IMG/VR virus record: IMGVR_UViG_3300025078_000002
Span: 1-64,000 of that record
Origin: a virus
Lineage: Duplodnaviria > Caudoviricetes
Reading direction: 5' to 3' (one strand)
DNA length: 64,000 nucleotides
Position numbers and translations under genes: made by a program. The notes beneath the pieces were generated by a model. That model saw only the letters and a list, made by a program, of their open reading frames with translations, did no database searches and was not told where the DNA came from. Shown here piece by piece: positions 8,807-62,644 of the stretch. Numbering within the stretch: the stretch's first letter is position 1; every line of letters starts with the position of its first letter.

Positions 8807-9172
8807 ATGAAAAAGAATATATTACGAGAACGGCATAAAGATTTAGTCAATATGTTAGTAAGATGTAGAATTACTATAGAAGAAAGAGAAAATCCAACTG
8901 TGCTTGATATAATGACTGATATGAGAGCATTAAACGGTGTAGTAACTGTCAGACAAACAAGGCCACTTTCAGAGGTAATATCTACAGACAAGCATAGAAT
9001 AATTGAGCTAAATGTCTCTTATATACCGAAATTTGTTGAAACTAAAGGAAACATATTTCTTGAAGTTGCAAAATCACTAAAAAAAGTTGAAGGTGTTAAA
9101 ATTGTTAAAATTATGGAACACGACAACGATATAATCAATGGAAAATTACAAAATAAACCGCTTATTTTTTAA
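8807..9172 (+). CDS. Hypothetical protein (ILRE leader; possible small alpha/beta fold)
   Basis: CAGGAG RBS, 121 aa ORF, ATAATTA 23 nt upstream. Confidence 0.65.
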   Translation: MKKNILRERHKDLVNMLVRCRITIEERENPTVLDIMTDMRALNGVVTVRQTRPLSEVISTDKHRIIELNVSYIPKFVETKGNIFLEVAKSLKKVEGVKIVKIMEHDNDIINGKLQNKPLIF

Positions 9173-9181
9173 AGGAAAAAA

Positions 9182-9412
9182 ATGAAATTACACGATAATT
9201 CAATTGCACATATTGCTAAAATAATTCAAATGGCTATTTTATCAGGTACAGATATTGTAGATCACTTAAGAATGGTAAGATTCAGTCCTATCGAAGATGA
9301 CTTTCTTGTTATTGATGAGGAATATGAAGAGATATTTAATTCTTCGATTAATAAAATGATGAATAACATACCAGCGACAGAAGACAATATTGAGAATGAA
9401 AAACAAGACTGA
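9182..9412 (+). CDS. Hypothetical protein
   Basis: AAAGGA RBS; co-linear 76 aa ORF in the operon. Confidence 0.65.
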   Translation: MKLHDNSIAHIAKIIQMAILSGTDIVDHLRMVRFSPIEDDFLVIDEEYEEIFNSSINKMMNNIPATEDNIENEKQD

Positions 9413-9779
9413 TAAGCTTGAAAGTATATTCACTAAACGTGAATCTTTTATGAATCTTATAAAACTAAAATACCCTTCAGCATATAATAATTGGCCTGTT
9501 GACATTTCCGATAAAGCTAGTCAAGTTATATTAAGAGAAACAGCACTTAAAGGTGTTGAGGAGATGTTTGAAGCACTTGGTCATCTTAAAAACTGGAAGC
9601 CGCATAGAGACACAGATCTTCCTGAGATTAATAGGGAAGAGTTTCTAGAAGAGATAGTTGATGCATTTAATTATTTCTTTTCATTAATCATCTTGATGGG
9701 AGTTGATGTTGATGAATTTTATTGTGCGTTTAACAAAAAAGATGAGATAATAAGAGATAGAATTAGTAAAAATTACTAG
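9396..9779 (+). CDS. All-alpha NTP pyrophosphatase (dimeric dUTPase / T4 gp56 dCTPase-like)
   Basis: EEMFEALGHLKNWKPH ... FLEEIVDAFNYF ... RDRISKNY: acidic metal-binding pattern and C-terminal RxxxxY. Confidence 0.75.
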   Translation: MKNKTDKLESIFTKRESFMNLIKLKYPSAYNNWPVDISDKASQVILRETALKGVEEMFEALGHLKNWKPHRDTDLPEINREEFLEEIVDAFNYFFSLIILMGVDVDEFYCAFNKKDEIIRDRISKNY

Positions 9780-9791
9780 ATTTATATTGTG

Positions 9792-9819
9792 TGTAAATAT
9801 ACACAATATATTTTATAAT
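9792..9819 (+). promoter_or_regulatory. Putative promoter TGTAAA-N16-TATAAT
   Basis: TGTAAA 9792-9797 and TATAAT 9814-9819, upstream of the second ThyX-like gene. Confidence 0.7.
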
Positions 9820-9846
9820 AAATGGTAAGTAACAAGGAGAAAAAAT

Positions 9847-59726: not shown

Positions 59727-60088
59727 CGTTTACCACCCCAGTATTCTTTGGCGAGACCTTCGTTTATTAATTGTTTATTATAACTATTTTCGAACTCAGG
59801 TTTATCTTTTTCTAAATCCCAAATCGTTCCAAGCCATCTACCGAACTTCCCACGCTTGGCTGTATGTAACAACACCTTCTTGCCAAGAATTCTCTCACGC
59901 AACCAATCACGTGTTGCTAAACCCTTTTCTTTCTCGTCTAAATCTTTAGTACGAACTTCAGGTGTATCAATACCCACAAGCCTTACTTTAATTCTCACAG
60001 ATGTTTTAAAGCCGAGGTCAACTACGGCAGTCACTGAGTCCCCATCATAAACTTTTACAATATCAGCAATGTAATAATATGGTTTCAT
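59723..60088 (-). CDS. Thermonuclease (staphylococcal nuclease-like)
   Basis: VKVYDGDSV, VRLVGIDTPE, KFGRWLG and LINEGLA. Confidence 0.88.
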   Translation of the reverse strand: MKPYYYIADIVKVYDGDSVTAVVDLGFKTSVRIKVRLVGIDTPEVRTKDLDEKEKGLATRDWLRERILGKKVLLHTAKRGKFGRWLGTIWDLEKDKPEFENSYNKQLINEGLAKEYWGGKR

Positions 60089-60174
60089 GTTTTACCTTTT
60101 TTATAATTAAACAAATATATAGTAAATATACAAGATAAATCGATTATACCGATGGCGCCAATAAAGGAATTTTC

Positions 60175-60765
60175 ATGAGTAAACTTTTAATAGAAGACTA
60201 CATAAAAGAATTTGTTTCTTTTTTAAACGAGGATAGTGAGCAAGAAGAATACTCTTTGTCTGATCCTGGTGAATATTCTGATAGTGATCGACCTACTTTT
60301 GGCGACATTAAAGCTTTTGTAAACGTAGCAAAAATAACTAATGGTAAAACAATGAAGTTGGCAATTAGTTTTGCATCACATTTTGCAGGAGCTCAAGTAA
60401 TTGGCAGCGCTTTAGACGCAGTAAATATATCACACGACAAAATAGCTGATGATACGGTTGATGCAGTAGCTGGTGCATTAGAAAAAGTATTTGGTTTTAA
60501 ACTGACTAGTTTTTCTCCCACAAAGATTCTTGCAAAAATGTACGGTGTAAATGATAAAAAAGGATTTGAATTAATACAAATACCTTCAGAAATTTCAAAT
60601 TTAATTGACGACAAAATAGAGGTAAACTTTATTGATCATCTTTACAAGGTAATATTAAAAAAAGACAACAACGAAGAAATTCCAGATGATTTTGTTTTAA
60701 ACACTTTGAAAGTATTCACTAAGGAAAACAAAAAAACAAAAGGTCATTTTGTATCTAAATCATAA
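60175..60765 (+). CDS. Hypothetical protein with LIE/IKE/LNE leader
   Basis: AAAGGA RBS. Confidence 0.7.
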   Translation: MSKLLIEDYIKEFVSFLNEDSEQEEYSLSDPGEYSDSDRPTFGDIKAFVNVAKITNGKTMKLAISFASHFAGAQVIGSALDAVNISHDKIADDTVDAVAGALEKVFGFKLTSFSPTKILAKMYGVNDKKGFELIQIPSEISNLIDDKIEVNFIDHLYKVILKKDNNEEIPDDFVLNTLKVFTKENKKTKGHFVSKS

Positions 60766-60776
60766 AGACTACGCCG

Positions 60777-60859
60777 CCAAGTATATTTCTTTTTTCCACC
60801 TGTTAAATGAGGATATCTGCCAGTTCTACACGCCCAATAACTTGCTGTTGTTTATCTTG
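60777..60859 (-). pseudogene. Possible frameshifted remnant of a gene 3' end (QDK/TTASYWACRTGRYPHLTGGKKKYTW)
   Basis: GC-richer intergenic island between convergent genes. Reads like the KDKTTAxYWxCR end of a small conserved phage protein (from memory); a 1-nt loss puts TAA in frame. Confidence 0.45.
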
Positions 60860-60880
60860 ATTTTAATTCCTCAAAGAACT

Positions 60881-62644
60881 TTACGTAGCTATTCTAGCTA
60901 ATTGTGCCACATCTTCAGCAAAATAAATAAACATATGAAGTAACATAGCAATATTTTGTGATTCTTTACTTTTAAATTCGTAATTAGAAGAGTAGTCCTG
61001 TAGTTTATCAAGAATTTTCATTATATTATCATAACCATTCTTGTCTTTAATTCTATAAATGCTTTTATTACTATGCTTTGATAAAAATACTTGAATATAA
61101 GTAAGACTATCTTCAATTTTAACCATTTTAGGCATTTCGCTTTTTATTATTTCAAGCTGCTTTTTAATACTAGAATTTAAAAATTTTTCTTTAATACCAA
61201 TGTCAAATACTATTAATTTATCTTTTCCAGCATACATGTTTAAATCAAAAATTTTGTTTGCTGAGTGAAACTTTAAAAATCTTACAAATTTTAAATTATT
61301 CTTAGTTAAATCTTTCCAAGCTTTTTCTCTTAGATCTTCTAGAGGATGTTCTAATTTAACATCATCAAAAAGAGATGATCCAAAAAGATTATTAAGTTGT
61401 GGGTTTTGTTCAAGAATGTTAACGATCTTATTCATCGTAACACCTTTACTTGAAATAGAACTTGATTCGTGATCTGCAGAAAATAAATTATCAATAGAAT
61501 TAATTTCTTTTGTGCTAAATATATTATTAAACGTTCCAATTAAAACGACTTTTTCTTTTTTAGATGAGTTTAAATAAACTGCTTGTATAGGTTCGTTAGA
61601 ATGAAGAGTTCCAGAGCCTTTGTCGTTTATAAAGTCTATATCAATAGAATTTAATAACATTGTAAAAATAGGACCTTGGCGTATTTCACTTTGCGGTTCA
61701 TTTATTTTATTTACATCAAAAGCATTTGGATCATCGGCTTCAAACGCAGGACCACTTGGATTATCTGTAATGATGTTTGAAAGCATGTAGCATACGAAAT
61801 ATAAGATATGAAAATCAGATTTTGCTTCCTTAGTTCTAGTTTTAAAAAACATATTTCTTTGTGAAAAAGATTCTATTTTAGTTAATTTAGTTAAATAATC
61901 TACAGATTCTATTAAAATATCGCTAGGTATTCTATTATTATTATACTTGACTGATTCTGCTAAAAGTTTTGTTAGAAATAAAAATTCTTCATTAAACGGG
62001 TCTGGATGGGTGAGATTTGAAATCATTAATCTTCTTTTTAATTTCTTTTTAATTTCTTTTAATTTGATATTAGAATCAGTACCAGTTAGATTTTGTTTTG
62101 ATAACGTATTTTTTTCTCTTTCTAAAAGACGAGCAGTATGATAAATTACAGAAGTGTGGACTATTGTTTTTAAGTCTTTTTCTAAATTACCACTATAATT
62201 ATTGTTTCCACCAGACTGTATTTCTATAAAATTTAGAGAATTAGATTTTTTAAACATATGGAAATAAGGTCTATCAATCGCAAAACTTGCCCCTCCAATC
62301 CTACCTTTTTCAATAATATCTTTTAAAGAATTTACATTGAGTGGATAAGCGTAATTTCCGTGAGGAGTTCCATATGATACGTTTGGACTTATTTCAAGTC
62401 TAGGAATGAATTCGTCATATTTATCAATAAAAGATATAAAGCAATTATCTCCAACATTTTCTAAGACTTTTAGAAGAGTTACTTCATTGTCTATATTTGT
62501 CATGTTTTCTCTATGAGTTGCAGATTGTTGATGCTGTGTCCTACCAGTAATGTTGCTGGCAGGATTAATTATTGCTGATGTTGCTTCTTGCAAGAATTCT
62601 TTTATATAACTTTTCAGTATAGATTTTTTAAGCGAATTATTCAT
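60881..62644 (-). CDS. Leader-bearing 587 aa protein with YGTPHGNYAYP motif (possible ART-like fold)
   Basis: MNNSLKKSILKSYIKEFLQE leader. Confidence 0.65.
   Translation of the reverse strand: MNNSLKKSILKSYIKEFLQEATSAIINPASNITGRTQHQQSATHRENMTNIDNEVTLLKVLENVGDNCFISFIDKYDEFIPRLEISPNVSYGTPHGNYAYPLNVNSLKDIIEKGRIGGASFAIDRPYFHMFKKSNSLNFIEIQSGGNNNYSGNLEKDLKTIVHTSVIYHTARLLEREKNTLSKQNLTGTDSNIKLKEIKKKLKRRLMISNLTHPDPFNEEFLFLTKLLAESVKYNNNRIPSDILIESVDYLTKLTKIESFSQRNMFFKTRTKEAKSDFHILYFVCYMLSNIITDNPSGPAFEADDPNAFDVNKINEPQSEIRQGPIFTMLLNSIDIDFINDKGSGTLHSNEPIQAVYLNSSKKEKVVLIGTFNNIFSTKEINSIDNLFSADHESSSISSKGVTMNKIVNILEQNPQLNNLFGSSLFDDVKLEHPLEDLREKAWKDLTKNNLKFVRFLKFHSANKIFDLNMYAGKDKLIVFDIGIKEKFLNSSIKKQLEIIKSEMPKMVKIEDSLTYIQVFLSKHSNKSIYRIKDKNGYDNIMKILDKLQDYSSNYEFKSKESQNIAMLLHMFIYFAEDVAQLARIAT

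What the first reader, a model, noticed from the sequence alone, without database searches (positions are those of the whole stretch)
8807..62644. Shared N-terminal leader ending in [L/I/F]-x-E marks about 21 otherwise unrelated proteins
Seen: MTKYSLKENFLIKE (18754-), MKITERRLRSLIRQVIKE (26300-, 26926-), LYEWKILLE (27704-), MNQLIENYVKVFLNE (29266), LLLENYIKTILKE (31839-), SLKEHYGYLFE (32302), SLKEGFDFLFE (33016), LLKE (38931), LINE..VISE (39369), VLKE..LLE (40072), LLFE (41508), KLLE (41885), YLNE (45002), LLTE (45873), LLKE (56367), ILVENWKSFLNE (56567), LLRE (59726-), LIEDYIKEFVSFLNE (60175), YIKEFLQE (62644-), ILRE (8807). In several, the recognisable domain starts right after the last E. 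Most core replication enzymes lack the pattern. Known: T4 gp21 cleaves after [L/I]-x-E, and T4 internal proteins use a short capsid-targeting leader (MKTYQEFIAE). Inference: a portable packaging tag defining a large injected proteome.
Basis: partly seen in the sequence, partly recalled or inferred. Interest (0 to 1): 0.82.

Follow-up and report, generated by a model that had tools for sequence, protein, structure and literature searches.

The report
Head-loading leader tags on phage proteins
About twenty otherwise unrelated proteins of an uncultured T4-type giant phage start with a short swappable helix that ends in the cutting motif of the T4-type head protease, so they are most likely loaded into the capsid and delivered with the DNA, as T4 does on a much smaller scale.

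Summary
The bare [L/I/F]-x-E tripeptide is only weakly enriched at N-termini (47% against 33%). The true signal is a 12-20-residue amphipathic leader with hydrophobic residues at P12/P11, P8/P7 and P4/P3 and Glu at P1. It is strongly enriched (z 5-6 in four genomes). It is absent from 494 tail-region genes of relatives and from all recognisable housekeeping enzymes.

The window is a fragment of a roughly 240-kb T4-superfamily myovirus. A complete syntenic relative encodes a gp21-family (S77) prohead protease with its catalytic His and Ser, and a gp23-type capsid protein whose propeptide ends V-L-R-E.

The leaders fall into sub-types that are interchangeable:
- The same leader heads unrelated bodies.
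- The same body (HAD phosphatase, ART-like domain) carries different leaders, or none.
- In SOD, HAD and ART-like cargo the fold starts just after the Glu.

T4's own CTS scores positive on a matrix trained only on this clade.

Cleavage and packaging are inferred, not shown.

This is an expanded, diversified variant of the T4 capsid-targeting system. The scan has noted analogous systems in other uncultured T4-like phages.

The parts
18713..18754 (-). Leader of g029 (921 aa; 15989-18754): MTKYSLKENFLIKE, D-type; cargo has an ART-like N-terminal domain
   Evidence: Conserved in orthologues and deep homologues. The AF2 model has pLDDT <50 only for residues 1-14, and the fold starts at about residue 20.
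26247..26300 (-). Leader of g036 (188 aa): MKITERRLRSLIRQVIKE, B-type
   Evidence: PWM 20.4. Similarity to g037, G001_049, G003_008, G004_003 and G004_070 ends at residue 19-40.
26873..26926 (-). Leader of g037 (158 aa): MKITERRLRSIIRSVIKE, B-type; body unrelated to g036
   Evidence: PWM 20.7. Differs from the g036 leader by 5 synonymous and 2 non-synonymous codons.
27642..27704 (-). Leader of g038 (250 aa): MNKLSKKEFKNMLYE(15)WKILLE(21)
   Evidence: PWM 12.1. 'REFKELL[IT]EW' is conserved in G001_047 and G004_283 while the bodies diverge.
29266..29310 (+). Leader of g041 (361 aa): MNQLIENYVKVFLNE, A-type
   Evidence: PWM 15.6. No homologue in G001 or G004, so it is variable cargo.
31792..31839 (-). 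Leader of g043 (192 aa, HAD_SAK_1 phosphatase): MSILLLENYIKTILKE, A-type
   Evidence: PWM 21.9. Pfam HAD_SAK_1 E=6.5e-19 from residue 44, with the DxD motif at residues 28-30. Homologues G002_031 and G005_034 carry a C-type leader instead.
32302..32346 (+). Leader of g045 (203 aa): (M)ATKSLKEHYGYLFE, D-type, GTG start
   Evidence: Same leader type as g046, g029, g075 and deep homologues such as P0023. No orthologues. The PWM score is below threshold, so support is moderate.
33016..33066 (+). Leader of g046 (1966 aa, unknown function): MDSSKISLKEGFDFLFE, D-type
   Evidence: No Pfam, PHROG or Atlas lead for the body. Absent from G001 and G004.
38931..38966 (+). Leader of g047 (141 aa): MNKKQLINLLKE; ambiguous
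   Evidence: PWM 12.0. LLKEEY[DE]KR is conserved in orthologues, so the Glu may lie inside a conserved element.
39369..39452 (+). Two-site leader of g048 (230 aa, Fe/Mn superoxide dismutase): ...KKLINE(10)...KEVISE(28)|AYVTQ
   Evidence: The alignment to Fe-SOD 1COJ (E=1e-29) places fold residue 1 at about residue 25-29. The second site [IL]-x-E|[AS]YV is conserved in G001_057 and G004_061. The first site is lost in G001_057.
40072..40149 (+). Leader of g049 (272 aa): ...DVLKE(15)...LDILLE(26) followed by a long acidic run
   Evidence: The second site is conserved (ILFE, LILE) in orthologues. The layout resembles T4 gp67, NFLIE followed by an acidic run.
41508..41558 (+). Leader of g052 (123 aa): MKINKKVKDKIQELLFE
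   Evidence: PWM 12.1. 'LFE' is conserved in G001_061 and G004_057.
41885..41929 (+). Doubtful leader of g053 (1029 aa): ...VKKLLE(15)
   Evidence: The Glu is replaced by Ser in orthologue G004_056 (KLLSF), and the PWM score is below threshold.
44984..45022 (+). Leader of g054 (118 aa from the corrected start 44984): MYLQNIMSNYLNE
   Evidence: There is an RBS (AAGGA) before 44984. Orthologue G004_055 reads MILKNIMFDYLNE (PWM 15.1). YLNE is conserved in three genomes.
45873..45917 (+). Leader of g057 (214 aa): MHNDILKKLDALLTE
   Evidence: Orthologues read EILNE(15) and EILSE(15) at the same position, with a divergent sequence around it.
56367..56417 (+). Leader of g073 (67 aa): MSENIIIQKILLRLLKE
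   Evidence: PWM 12.1. No orthologues.
56567..56614 (+). Leader of g074 (213 aa, nucleotidyltransferase-like): MKSKILVENWKSFLNE, C-type
   Evidence: PWM 20.0. Pfam and PHROG nucleotidyltransferase/NMNAT-like hits start at residue 35-39. The orthologue G001_084 reads MKTNILVESWKNFIKE.
59682..59726 (-). Leader of g075 (844 aa): MKYSLKNEYKELLRE, D-type
   Evidence: PWM 16.1. The leader is conserved in G001_085 although residues 16-381 are not. T4 gp24 has ELLRE(10).
60175..60231 (+). Leader of g077 (196 aa): MSKLLIEDYIKE(12)FVSFLNE(19), A-type
   Evidence: PWM 11.0. The orthologue G004_030 reads MNVIKDYVRNFLLLE.
62585..62644 (-). Leader of g079 (587 aa): MNNSLKKSILKSYIKEFLQE|A, A-type
   Evidence: PWM 19.9. 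46 of 50 distinct homologues down to about 30% identity begin with ...YIKxFLKE|A.
8807..8830 (+). Doubtful short leader of g014 (121 aa): MKKNILRE
   Evidence: The Glu is conserved in 6 orthologues, but so are the following residues (LLERHxDL), so it may be part of the fold. PWM 11.5.
62935..64000 (-). C-terminal part of g081 (937 aa, paralogue of g029); its leader MKNSIRWLLTE lies outside the window at contig position 65716-65748
   Evidence: PWM 15.6. MKNSIRWLLTE is conserved in many homologues, P0008-P0019.

Best explanation
The window belongs to an uncultured, low-GC T4-superfamily myovirus of about 240 kb. About 20 of its proteins, some 39% of the coding capacity of this 75-kb fragment, begin with a 12-20-residue amphipathic helix. 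The helix has sub-types A to D and ends in hydrophobic-[L/I/F]-x-Glu.

The most likely mechanism is the T4 one:
1. The helix docks the pre-protein onto the scaffolding core while the prohead assembles, acting as a capsid-targeting sequence.
2. The gp21-family (S77) prohead protease then cuts after the Glu and releases the mature cargo inside the head.
3. The cargo leaves the head with the DNA at the next infection.

Cargo includes ART-like multidomain proteins of about 900 aa, a superoxide dismutase, a HAD/PNK-type phosphatase, a nucleotidyltransferase, a 1966-aa giant, and many fast-evolving orphans.

Shown here: the leader's existence, architecture, N-terminal restriction, portability, protein-level selection, its position just ahead of the folded domain, and the presence of the matching protease and capsid propeptide site in the lineage. 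Inferred: docking, cleavage, packaging and injection.
For: - Enrichment is z 5-6 in four genomes, with a positional peak at residues 14-17.
- The leader is absent from 494 tail-region genes of relatives and from RNR, ThyX, TK, dCMP deaminase, DnaE, FEN, GroEL, sigma factor, sheath, tube and hub.
- The lineage is T4-type. Its sheath is nearest to T4-superfamily phages.
- The complete syntenic relative G004 (60 of 95 genes shared) and G005 encode Peptidase_S77 (E 2e-29 and 4e-30) and Gp23 (E 4e-66) in the order terminase, portal, protease, scaffold-like genes, MCP.
- The protease aligns to T4 gp21 (5JBL, E 1e-16). It keeps His and Ser at the positions of T4's LGELNHP and GVSSRG, and it starts MGAQRLITE(9), like T4's MNEPQLLIE(9).
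- The MCP propeptide ends VLRE|S, or ILRE|Q in a 55%-identical relative.
- With B-type leaders anchored only on residues 1-9, Glu is at position 18 in 17/20, P3 is I/L in 18/20, P2 is free, and conservation collapses after the Glu. This is the gp21 specificity L/I-X-E (PMC9026906).
- Portability is documented.
- The fold starts right after the leader in SOD, HAD and the ART-like domain. In the AF2 model of the latter only residues 1-14 are disordered.
- Selection acts at protein level: 4-7 synonymous differences in 18 codons, with nucleotide identity 52-81%.
- T4 substrates score positive on the clade-trained PWM: ipII/ipIII CTS 8.3, gp22 9.1, Alt 8.4. T4 portal, sheath, tube and Hoc score negative.
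- Leader genes are the variable, fast-evolving class. Bodies are conserved in G004 for 7/22 leader genes against 48/66 others (p=9e-4). T-even internal-protein loci behave the same way (PMC2839356, PMC3012670).
Against: - There is no proteomic or biochemical evidence of cleavage or packaging.
- No S77 protease or head module lies on this 75-kb fragment or on the three nearest fragments. Its presence is inferred from G004 and G005.
- The T4-type late promoter box TATAAATA, which is perfect upstream of the MCP and tail genes of relatives, is not enriched upstream of leader genes (3/35 against 22/241). They share a different element, ATATTTA...TTTACAC, so co-expression with head genes is not established.
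- If all are packaged, the cargo would be unusually large and diverse, about 9,300 aa of distinct sequence including a 1966-aa protein.
- The P1' residue is not uniformly small as in the classical T4 Glu-Ala sites.
- The PWM counts at N-termini are partly circular, because the matrix was trained on such N-termini.
Confidence: 0.72

Rival explanations
1. The leader is a docking or oligomerisation helix that is not removed. For example it could be a coiled-coil handle that binds a scaffold, a chaperonin or another phage protein. The terminal Glu would then be a structural helix-capping preference and not a cleavage site.
For: The heptad-like pattern suits helix-helix packing. The phage encodes its own GroEL. 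P1' is not conserved. Cleavage was never observed.
Against: In B-type leaders anchored upstream, Glu is fixed at the last leader position with I/L at P3 and a free P2. That is exactly the gp21 specificity, and conservation collapses immediately afterwards. The same motif ends the MCP propeptide and lies at residue 9 of the protease, as in T4. In the AF2 model the leader is detached from the fold.
Confidence: 0.1
2. The leader is a tag for another fate. It could be a degron or processing signal read by the phage's ClpP-family protease (g005, 3589-4194) or a host protease, or a sorting signal to the membrane or to another compartment.
For: A ClpP-family protease is conserved in the lineage. Leader genes share their own upstream element instead of the late promoter box. 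This would fit an early, regulated protein class.
Against: The leader lacks the uninterrupted hydrophobic core of a secretion signal, with charged residues every 2-3 positions. ClpP degrons are not known to end in [IL]-x-E. The parallel with T4 substrates is specific, and T4's CTS, gp22 and Alt score positive on the PWM. Head-module small proteins and the MCP of relatives carry the same motif.
Confidence: 0.07
3. The conservation acts on nucleic acid. The shared 5' ends would be translation-initiation regions or recombination cassettes that move genes around, and the peptide would be a by-product.
For: g036 and g037 share an identical RBS (TTTTAGGAGAAAACAAAT) and upstream AACATATTTAA repeats. 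T-even internal-protein loci are shuffled through promoter-based cassettes (PMC2839356).
Against: Leaders of one type differ by 4-7 synonymous codons out of 18 and fall to 52% nucleotide identity while keeping the residue pattern. Sub-types with unrelated sequence keep the same hydrophobic spacing and the terminal [LI]-x-E. Deep homologues at 30% identity keep the leader. Cassette exchange probably exists as well, but it explains spread, not function.
Confidence: 0.04
4. It is a chance product of a K/E/L/I-rich, AT-rich proteome.
For: The bare tripeptide [LIF]-x-E is common everywhere (33% of internal 25-aa windows) and only weakly enriched at N-termini.
Against: The four-residue motif and the PWM are enriched at z 5-6 over composition-preserving shuffles of the N-termini themselves. 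Internal false positives are 0.3%. Frequency is at background in 494 tail-region genes of relatives.
Confidence: 0.02

Closest known systems
Phage T4 capsid-targeting sequence (CTS) of internal proteins IPI/IPII/IPIII and Alt, removed by the gp21 prohead protease (MEROPS S77)
   Same: Both are N-terminal propeptides of 10-20 residues ending in [L/I]-x-Glu on otherwise unrelated proteins. The lineage has a gp21-family protease with catalytic His and Ser. The MCP propeptide and the protease N-terminus carry the same motif. The cargo includes an ART-like enzyme, as Alt is. T4's MKTYQEFIAE scores positive on the clade's PWM.
   Different: - T4 has about 4-5 such cargo proteins with one CTS type. 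This lineage has about 20 on a 75-kb fragment and about 30 in the complete relative.
- There are at least four leader sub-types, which are longer (12-20 aa) and heptad-patterned.
- Cargo reaches 1966 aa and includes SOD, a HAD phosphatase and a nucleotidyltransferase.
- Leader genes have their own upstream element and not the late promoter box.
- Nothing has been shown experimentally.
Polymorphic internal-protein (ip) loci of T-even phages (Repoila 1994; Comeau 2007, as cited in PMC2839356 and PMC3012670)
   Same: The bodies are hypervariable and lineage-specific, and only the leader is conserved. The genes are flanked by repeated promoter-like elements. The inferred role is in phage-host conflict.
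   Different: In T-evens the more than 30 variants are spread over many phages at two loci. Here dozens coexist in one genome, dispersed over both accessory arms.
Giant phages phiKZ, 201phi2-1 and SPN3US: head and ejection proteins processed by a gp21-related protease at [S/A/G]-x-Glu
   Same: These are large phages with many internal or ejected head proteins, cut after Glu by a diverged gp21 homologue. Paralogous head proteins share conserved N-termini (PMC5694885).
   Different: Their propeptides are mostly over 100 residues and P3 is small (A/S/G). Only about 8-19 proteins are processed. Here propeptides are short, P3 is L/I/F as in T4, and the protease is a clear S77 Pfam match.
Polyvalent proteins of phages and conjugative elements (Iyer et al. 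2017, PMC5512222)
   Same: These are large multidomain proteins, often with ART domains, proposed to be delivered with the DNA. The Atlas gave a weak ART-PolyVal lead for g029.
   Different: No Pfam ART-PolyVal match was obtained. The defining feature here is the cleavable leader, which polyvalent proteins are not described as having.

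Membership tests
T4-type capsid-targeting / gp21-processed propeptide | Located at the extreme N-terminus and 10-20 residues long | tested here: met
   The Glu position peaks at residues 14-17 and falls off after 19. Internal windows rarely match (FPR 0.3%).
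T4-type capsid-targeting / gp21-processed propeptide | Ends in the gp21 cleavage motif [L/I]-x-Glu | tested here: met
   In the test anchored upstream, Glu is present in 17/20, P3 is I/L in 18/20, and P2 is free. The g079 family has ...FLKE|A in 46/50. The motif definition comes from PMC9026906.
T4-type capsid-targeting / gp21-processed propeptide | The same genome encodes an S77 (gp21-family) prohead protease | tested here: inconclusive
   Not found on this 75-kb fragment (CheckV estimates 30% completeness) or on the three nearest fragments. Found with intact His and Ser in the complete syntenic relative G004 and in G005.
T4-type capsid-targeting / gp21-processed propeptide | The tag is portable, being shared by otherwise unrelated proteins | tested here: met
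T4-type capsid-targeting / gp21-processed propeptide | Capsid and core proteins of the same phage carry the same site | tested here: met
   This holds in relatives only. The MCP has VLRE|S or ILRE|Q, head-module small proteins have leader-like N-termini, and the protease has LITE(9).
T4-type capsid-targeting / gp21-processed propeptide | The tag is cleaved in the prohead and the cargo is found in virions and injected | not testable with these tools
   This needs virion proteomics or N-terminomics, or reporter fusions.
T4-type capsid-targeting / gp21-processed propeptide | Sequence relatedness to the T4 CTS itself | tested here: inconclusive
   T4 ipII/ipIII MKTYQEFIAE scores 8.3 on the clade PWM, a threshold with 0.7% internal false positives. 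gp22 scores 9.1 and Alt 8.4, but ipI scores 1.3 and gp24 2.2. The peptides are too short for a homology claim.
ADP-ribosyltransferase fold (cargo domain of g029 and g081, residues about 20-320) | ART core fold with an H-Y-[E/D] or R-S-E catalytic pattern | tested here: inconclusive
   His29 and Tyr118 are invariant in 74 sequences. The AF2 model is confident (pLDDT 89). Foldseek's best E is 0.03. VIA-align Z is at most 4.9, although about 40 of the top 50 rows are ART-fold proteins. There is no Pfam match.
Sec/Tat signal peptide | Uninterrupted hydrophobic core of about 10-15 residues after a basic N-region | tested here: not met
   The profile shows charged residues at P10, P9, P6, P5 and P2 between the hydrophobic positions. 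This was read directly from the sequences; no signal-peptide predictor was run.

The most novel reading that the evidence does not exclude
This marine T4-type lineage devotes a large share of its accessory genome to a pre-loaded, injected 'starter kit' of more than 20 different proteins, about 1 MDa per copy set. The kit includes ART-like effectors, a superoxide dismutase, an NMNAT-like nucleotidyltransferase, a HAD/PNK-type phosphatase and a 1966-aa giant. The distinct leader classes A to D, together with their own promoter element, would then specify different loading amounts, positions or timing in the prohead. That would be a T4-lineage counterpart of the phiKZ inner body, built from a modular, interchangeable address code.
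Probability: 0.3. Interest if true: 0.8.

Novelty: new variant of a known kind. Interest (0 to 1): 0.64.

Why it matters
If the leaders work as in T4, the set of proteins a phage injects could be read straight from the sequence of uncultured ocean phages. That set is normally invisible to genomics. Here it is large, fast-evolving and enzymatic (ART-like effectors, SOD, nucleotide-handling enzymes). It therefore points to first-minute host takeover and counter-defence functions, and the many orphan cargo proteins become candidates for such roles.

The system also offers a natural library of short, interchangeable encapsidation tags with a defined cleavage site. This is relevant to protein-delivery uses already developed with the T4 CTS. 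In addition, it provides a testable rule (hydrophobic heptad plus [L/I]-x-E) for annotating head-protease substrates in T4-superfamily metagenomic genomes.

Tried and rejected
- Megablast of 25 kb against INPHARED phages gave no match.
- A related-locus scan with g053 returned nothing.
- Pfam and PHROGs on the 20 leader proteins gave only HAD, SOD and nucleotidyltransferase hits. All large cargo proteins are orphans.
- Un-anchored EM motif discovery on the first 32 aa converged on [S/L]-L-x-E but discriminated poorly (gamma 0.95), so I moved to anchored profiles and controls.
- S77 and S78 protease searches on the own contig and the three nearest fragments were negative, but all four are fragments.
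- The T4-type late promoter TATAAATA is not enriched upstream of leader genes. I therefore dropped 'late co-expression' as supporting evidence.
- PHROGs on the scaffold-like ORFs of G004's head module and on g049 gave no hits, so no gp22, gp67 or gp68 homology could be shown.
- Pfam on ten distant homologues of the g029 domain gave nothing useful.
- For the fold of the g029 domain, Foldseek gave no hit at E<=0.001 and the wide structural search gave Z below 5. The ART assignment stays a moderate-confidence lead.
- The Atlas search on the 1966-aa g046 gave no usable lead.
- The chance or composition explanation was rejected by shuffles and controls.
- The apparent leader of g001 was rejected because that ORF is the C-terminal part of a helicase cut by the window edge.

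Full report
**What the window is.** The 64-kb window lies in a 74,829-bp IMG/VR viral contig that CheckV rates 30% complete. Its GC content is about 31%, it has no tRNA genes, and its genes are densely packed. It has no close match among cultured phages.

- One leader protein, g029, led to three related contigs. The 107-kb contig G001 is collinear with this one. It adds a tail module with sheath, tube and baseplate hub.
- The sheath's nearest cultured relatives are T4-superfamily myoviruses. It also retrieved 80 related viral contigs.
- One of these, G004, is a complete genome of 239,550 bp with terminal repeats. It is collinear with this contig, and 60 of 95 genes have a BLASTP homologue.

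**Checking the observation.** All 21 quoted N-termini are real.

- The bare tripeptide [LIF]-x-E is a weak signal. It occurs in 47% of N-terminal 25-mers against 33% of internal ones.
- Adding a hydrophobic residue at P4 gives 32/88 proteins. The internal rate is 0.106, and composition-preserving shuffles of the N-termini give 13.3 +/- 3.2 (z=5.9).
- The result replicates in G001, G004 and G005 (z 5.1-6.3). The Glu position peaks at residues 14-17.
- Aligning on the Glu reveals a longer architecture. Hydrophobic residues sit at P12/P11, P8/P7, P4 and P3, K/R/E sit in between, and conservation is lost after P1.

Recognisable sub-types are:
- A: LLLENYIKxFLxE
- B: MKITERRLRxIIRxVIxE
- C: KxLVE[SN]WKxFLNE
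- D: SLKExFxxLFE

A 12-column PWM has 0.3% internal false positives at score >=10. Sixteen of 88 N-termini here pass, and 30 of 284 in G004. That count is partly circular because the matrix was trained on N-termini.

Independent controls are clean:
- In 494 genes from tail-module flanks of 76 related contigs, the pattern is at background (9.3%) and 1.4% pass the PWM.
- None of the Pfam-recognisable enzymes of the window passes. These are RNR, two ThyX, TK, dCMP deaminase, DnaE pieces, FEN, GroEL, a sigma-70-type factor, amidase, epimerase and ClpP.

- No S77 or S78 protease lies on this fragment or on the three nearest fragments.
- G004 and G005 each encode a Peptidase_S77 protein (E about 1e-29) and a Gp23-family MCP (E 4e-66). 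The gene order is T4-like: terminase, portal, protease, scaffold-like ORFs, MCP.
- The protease aligns to T4 gp21 (PDB 5JBL, E 1e-16). It has His and Ser where the crystallised chain has Ala. Wild-type T4 gp21, read from the T4 genome, has LGELNHP and GVSSRG at those positions.
- It begins MGAQRLITE(9). This parallels T4's MNEPQLLIE(9), which the literature notes as a candidate autocleavage site.
- The MCP core aligns to mature T4 gp23* from residue 71. The preceding region ends VLRE|S in G004 and G005, and ILRE|Q in a 55%-identical relative.
- Published work gives gp21's specificity as L/I-X-E. It describes the CTS as a propeptide of 10-20 residues, with upstream residues used for targeting and P3/P1 used for processing (PMC9026906, PMC5694885).

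**Is the Glu really special?** I anchored B-type leaders only on their first nine residues, giving 20 distinct sequences.
- Position 18 is Glu in 17. The other three end earlier, also in [IL]-x-E.
- P3 is I/L in 18, and P2 is free (K, Q, A, L, E, C, I, H).
- The sequence diverges immediately after the Glu.
- Among B-type leaders, 4-7 of 18 codons differ synonymously and nucleotide identity drops to 52%. Selection therefore acts on the peptide.

**Portability.**
- BLAST similarity among g036, g037, G001_049, G003_008, G004_003, G004_070 and G001_113 ends at residue 19-40, so one leader heads unrelated bodies.
- Homologous HAD phosphatases carry an A-type leader (g043, G003_003, G004_064, G001_053) or a C-type leader (G002_031, G005_034).
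- An exhaustive HMMER search with g029 found 249 relatives of its N-terminal domain. Of the 150 best-scoring relatives, which were the ones returned, 127 have the conserved His motif near the start. Of those 127, 97 have a hydrophobic-L-x-E leader of type A, B, C or D just upstream, with the Glu-to-His distance peaking at 11 and 13. About 30 have no leader.
- A second cargo family, g079, replicates this. Forty-six of 50 distinct homologues down to about 30% identity begin ...YIKxFLKE|A.

**Leader and fold.**
- The SOD-like g048 aligns to Fe-SOD 1COJ such that the fold begins at about residue 25-29. That is immediately after ...KEVISE(28), a site conserved in orthologues.
- In the HAD protein the leader ends at Glu16, and the DxD strand begins near residue 21-28.
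- An AlphaFold model of g029 residues 1-330 built on 74 sequences is confident (pLDDT 89, pTM 0.85). The exception is residues 1-14, which are exactly the leader.
- The domain behind the leader has an invariant His and Tyr. Its weak structural matches (Z at most 4.9) are overwhelmingly ART-fold proteins. I read it as a probable divergent ADP-ribosyltransferase, as T4 Alt is, with moderate confidence only.

**Positive control.** T4's own substrates were read from the T4 genome. On the PWM trained only on this clade they score 8.3 (ipII/ipIII, MKTYQEFIAE), 9.1 (gp22), 8.4 (Alt) and 6.6 (gp21). T4 portal, sheath, tube and Hoc score negative.

**Genomic behaviour.**
- The 22 leader genes encode 9,325 of the contig's 24,149 residues (39%).
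- Their bodies are conserved in G004 in 7/22 cases against 48/66 for other genes (p=9e-4), and they are less identical when conserved.
- In G004 the 33 PWM-positive genes lie in the accessory arms (0-70 kb and 180-240 kb). None lies in the 120-180 kb structural block.
- This matches the description of T-even internal-protein genes: hypervariable defence-related cargo with only the CTS conserved (PMC3012670, PMC2839356).

**What does not fit neatly.** Leader genes that have their own intergenic region do not show the TATAAATA late box (3/35 against 22/241). They share ATATTTA...TTTACAC instead (ATATTTA in 19/35 against 33/241, p=3.5e-7). Their expression timing is therefore unknown. A ClpP-family protease (g005) is also conserved in the lineage. 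It is kept as a minor rival processing enzyme.

**Verdict on the 21 candidates.**
- Well supported: g029, g036, g037, g038, g041, g043, g048, g049, g052, g054 (with the start moved to 44984), g057, g073, g074, g075, g077 and g079.
- Supported by leader type only: g045 and g046.
- Doubtful: g053 (Glu not conserved), and g014 and g047 (the Glu lies inside a conserved stretch).
- g081 is an additional member whose start lies beyond the window.

**Comparison and novelty.** The system works like the T4 CTS with gp21, and it meets every computationally testable defining feature. The one gap is that the protease is not on this fragment. It differs in scale (about 20-30 cargo proteins per genome against 4-5), leader length and diversity, cargo size and type, and promoter class. 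No publication describing such an expanded family was found in four literature searches. Earlier notes of this scan report analogous systems in other uncultured T4-type jumbo phages. I treat those as unverified but concordant. Cleavage, packaging and injection remain to be shown.

Noticed in passing
window 18755-18835 (upstream of g029), 27705-27768 (g038), 26301-26449 (g036); also G001, G004, G005: Leader genes with their own intergenic region share an upstream element, about ATATTTA(T/A)ATTTACAC, 20-40 nt before the ATG. ATATTTA occurs in 19/35 against 33/241 and TTTACAC in 6/35 against 2/241. The T4-type late box TATAAATA is not enriched. B-type genes have tandem AACATATTTAA repeats and an identical RBS. 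This may be a distinct promoter class or a shuffling cassette.
   Followed up: partly
window 3589-4194 (+): g005 is a ClpP-family serine protease (Pfam CLP_protease, E 4.5e-23). It is conserved in G001-G004, lies next to an amidase and RNR, and is far from the head module. Its role is unknown.
   Followed up: no
window 5040-8003 (+): Six small genes (g007-g012, about 150 aa each) look like a tandem duplication of a three-gene unit. The N-termini pair as g007/g010, g008/g011 and g009/g012. They have no homologue in G001-G004.
   Followed up: no
window 18835-25721 (+): The DnaE polymerase is split into four ORFs with intein pieces and interspersed ORFs (g030-g035). The close relative G001 has one uninterrupted 1191-aa DnaE (G001_048). 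In G004 the DnaE homologues lie on two ORFs in my own gene call (G004_074, 931 aa, and G004_071, 358 aa).
   Followed up: partly
window 40072-40890 (+): g049 has a leader site ILLE(26) followed by a long Asp/Glu/Ser-rich run. This resembles T4 prohead-core protein gp67 (...NFLIE then an acidic run). It may be a core or scaffold-like component encoded away from the head module.
   Followed up: partly
window 8063-8764 and 9847-10806 (+): There are two ThyX (Thy1) family genes in one phage. The second is a divergent 319-aa form (E 1.9e-19).
   Followed up: no
G004 109658-109894 (-), locus L106: The small head-region protein G004_132 starts with a B-like leader (MKLTAENLRRIALEE). It contains tandem copies of VKVTPEYLNRLIKEEYS, which resemble the leader itself. 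Head-module proteins G004_147 and G004_148 also have leader-like N-termini.
   Followed up: no
window 51147-52784 and 53004-53756 (+): The phage encodes its own GroEL-type chaperonin (Cpn60, E 1e-58) and a sigma-70-type factor with regions 1.2, 2 and 3.
   Followed up: no
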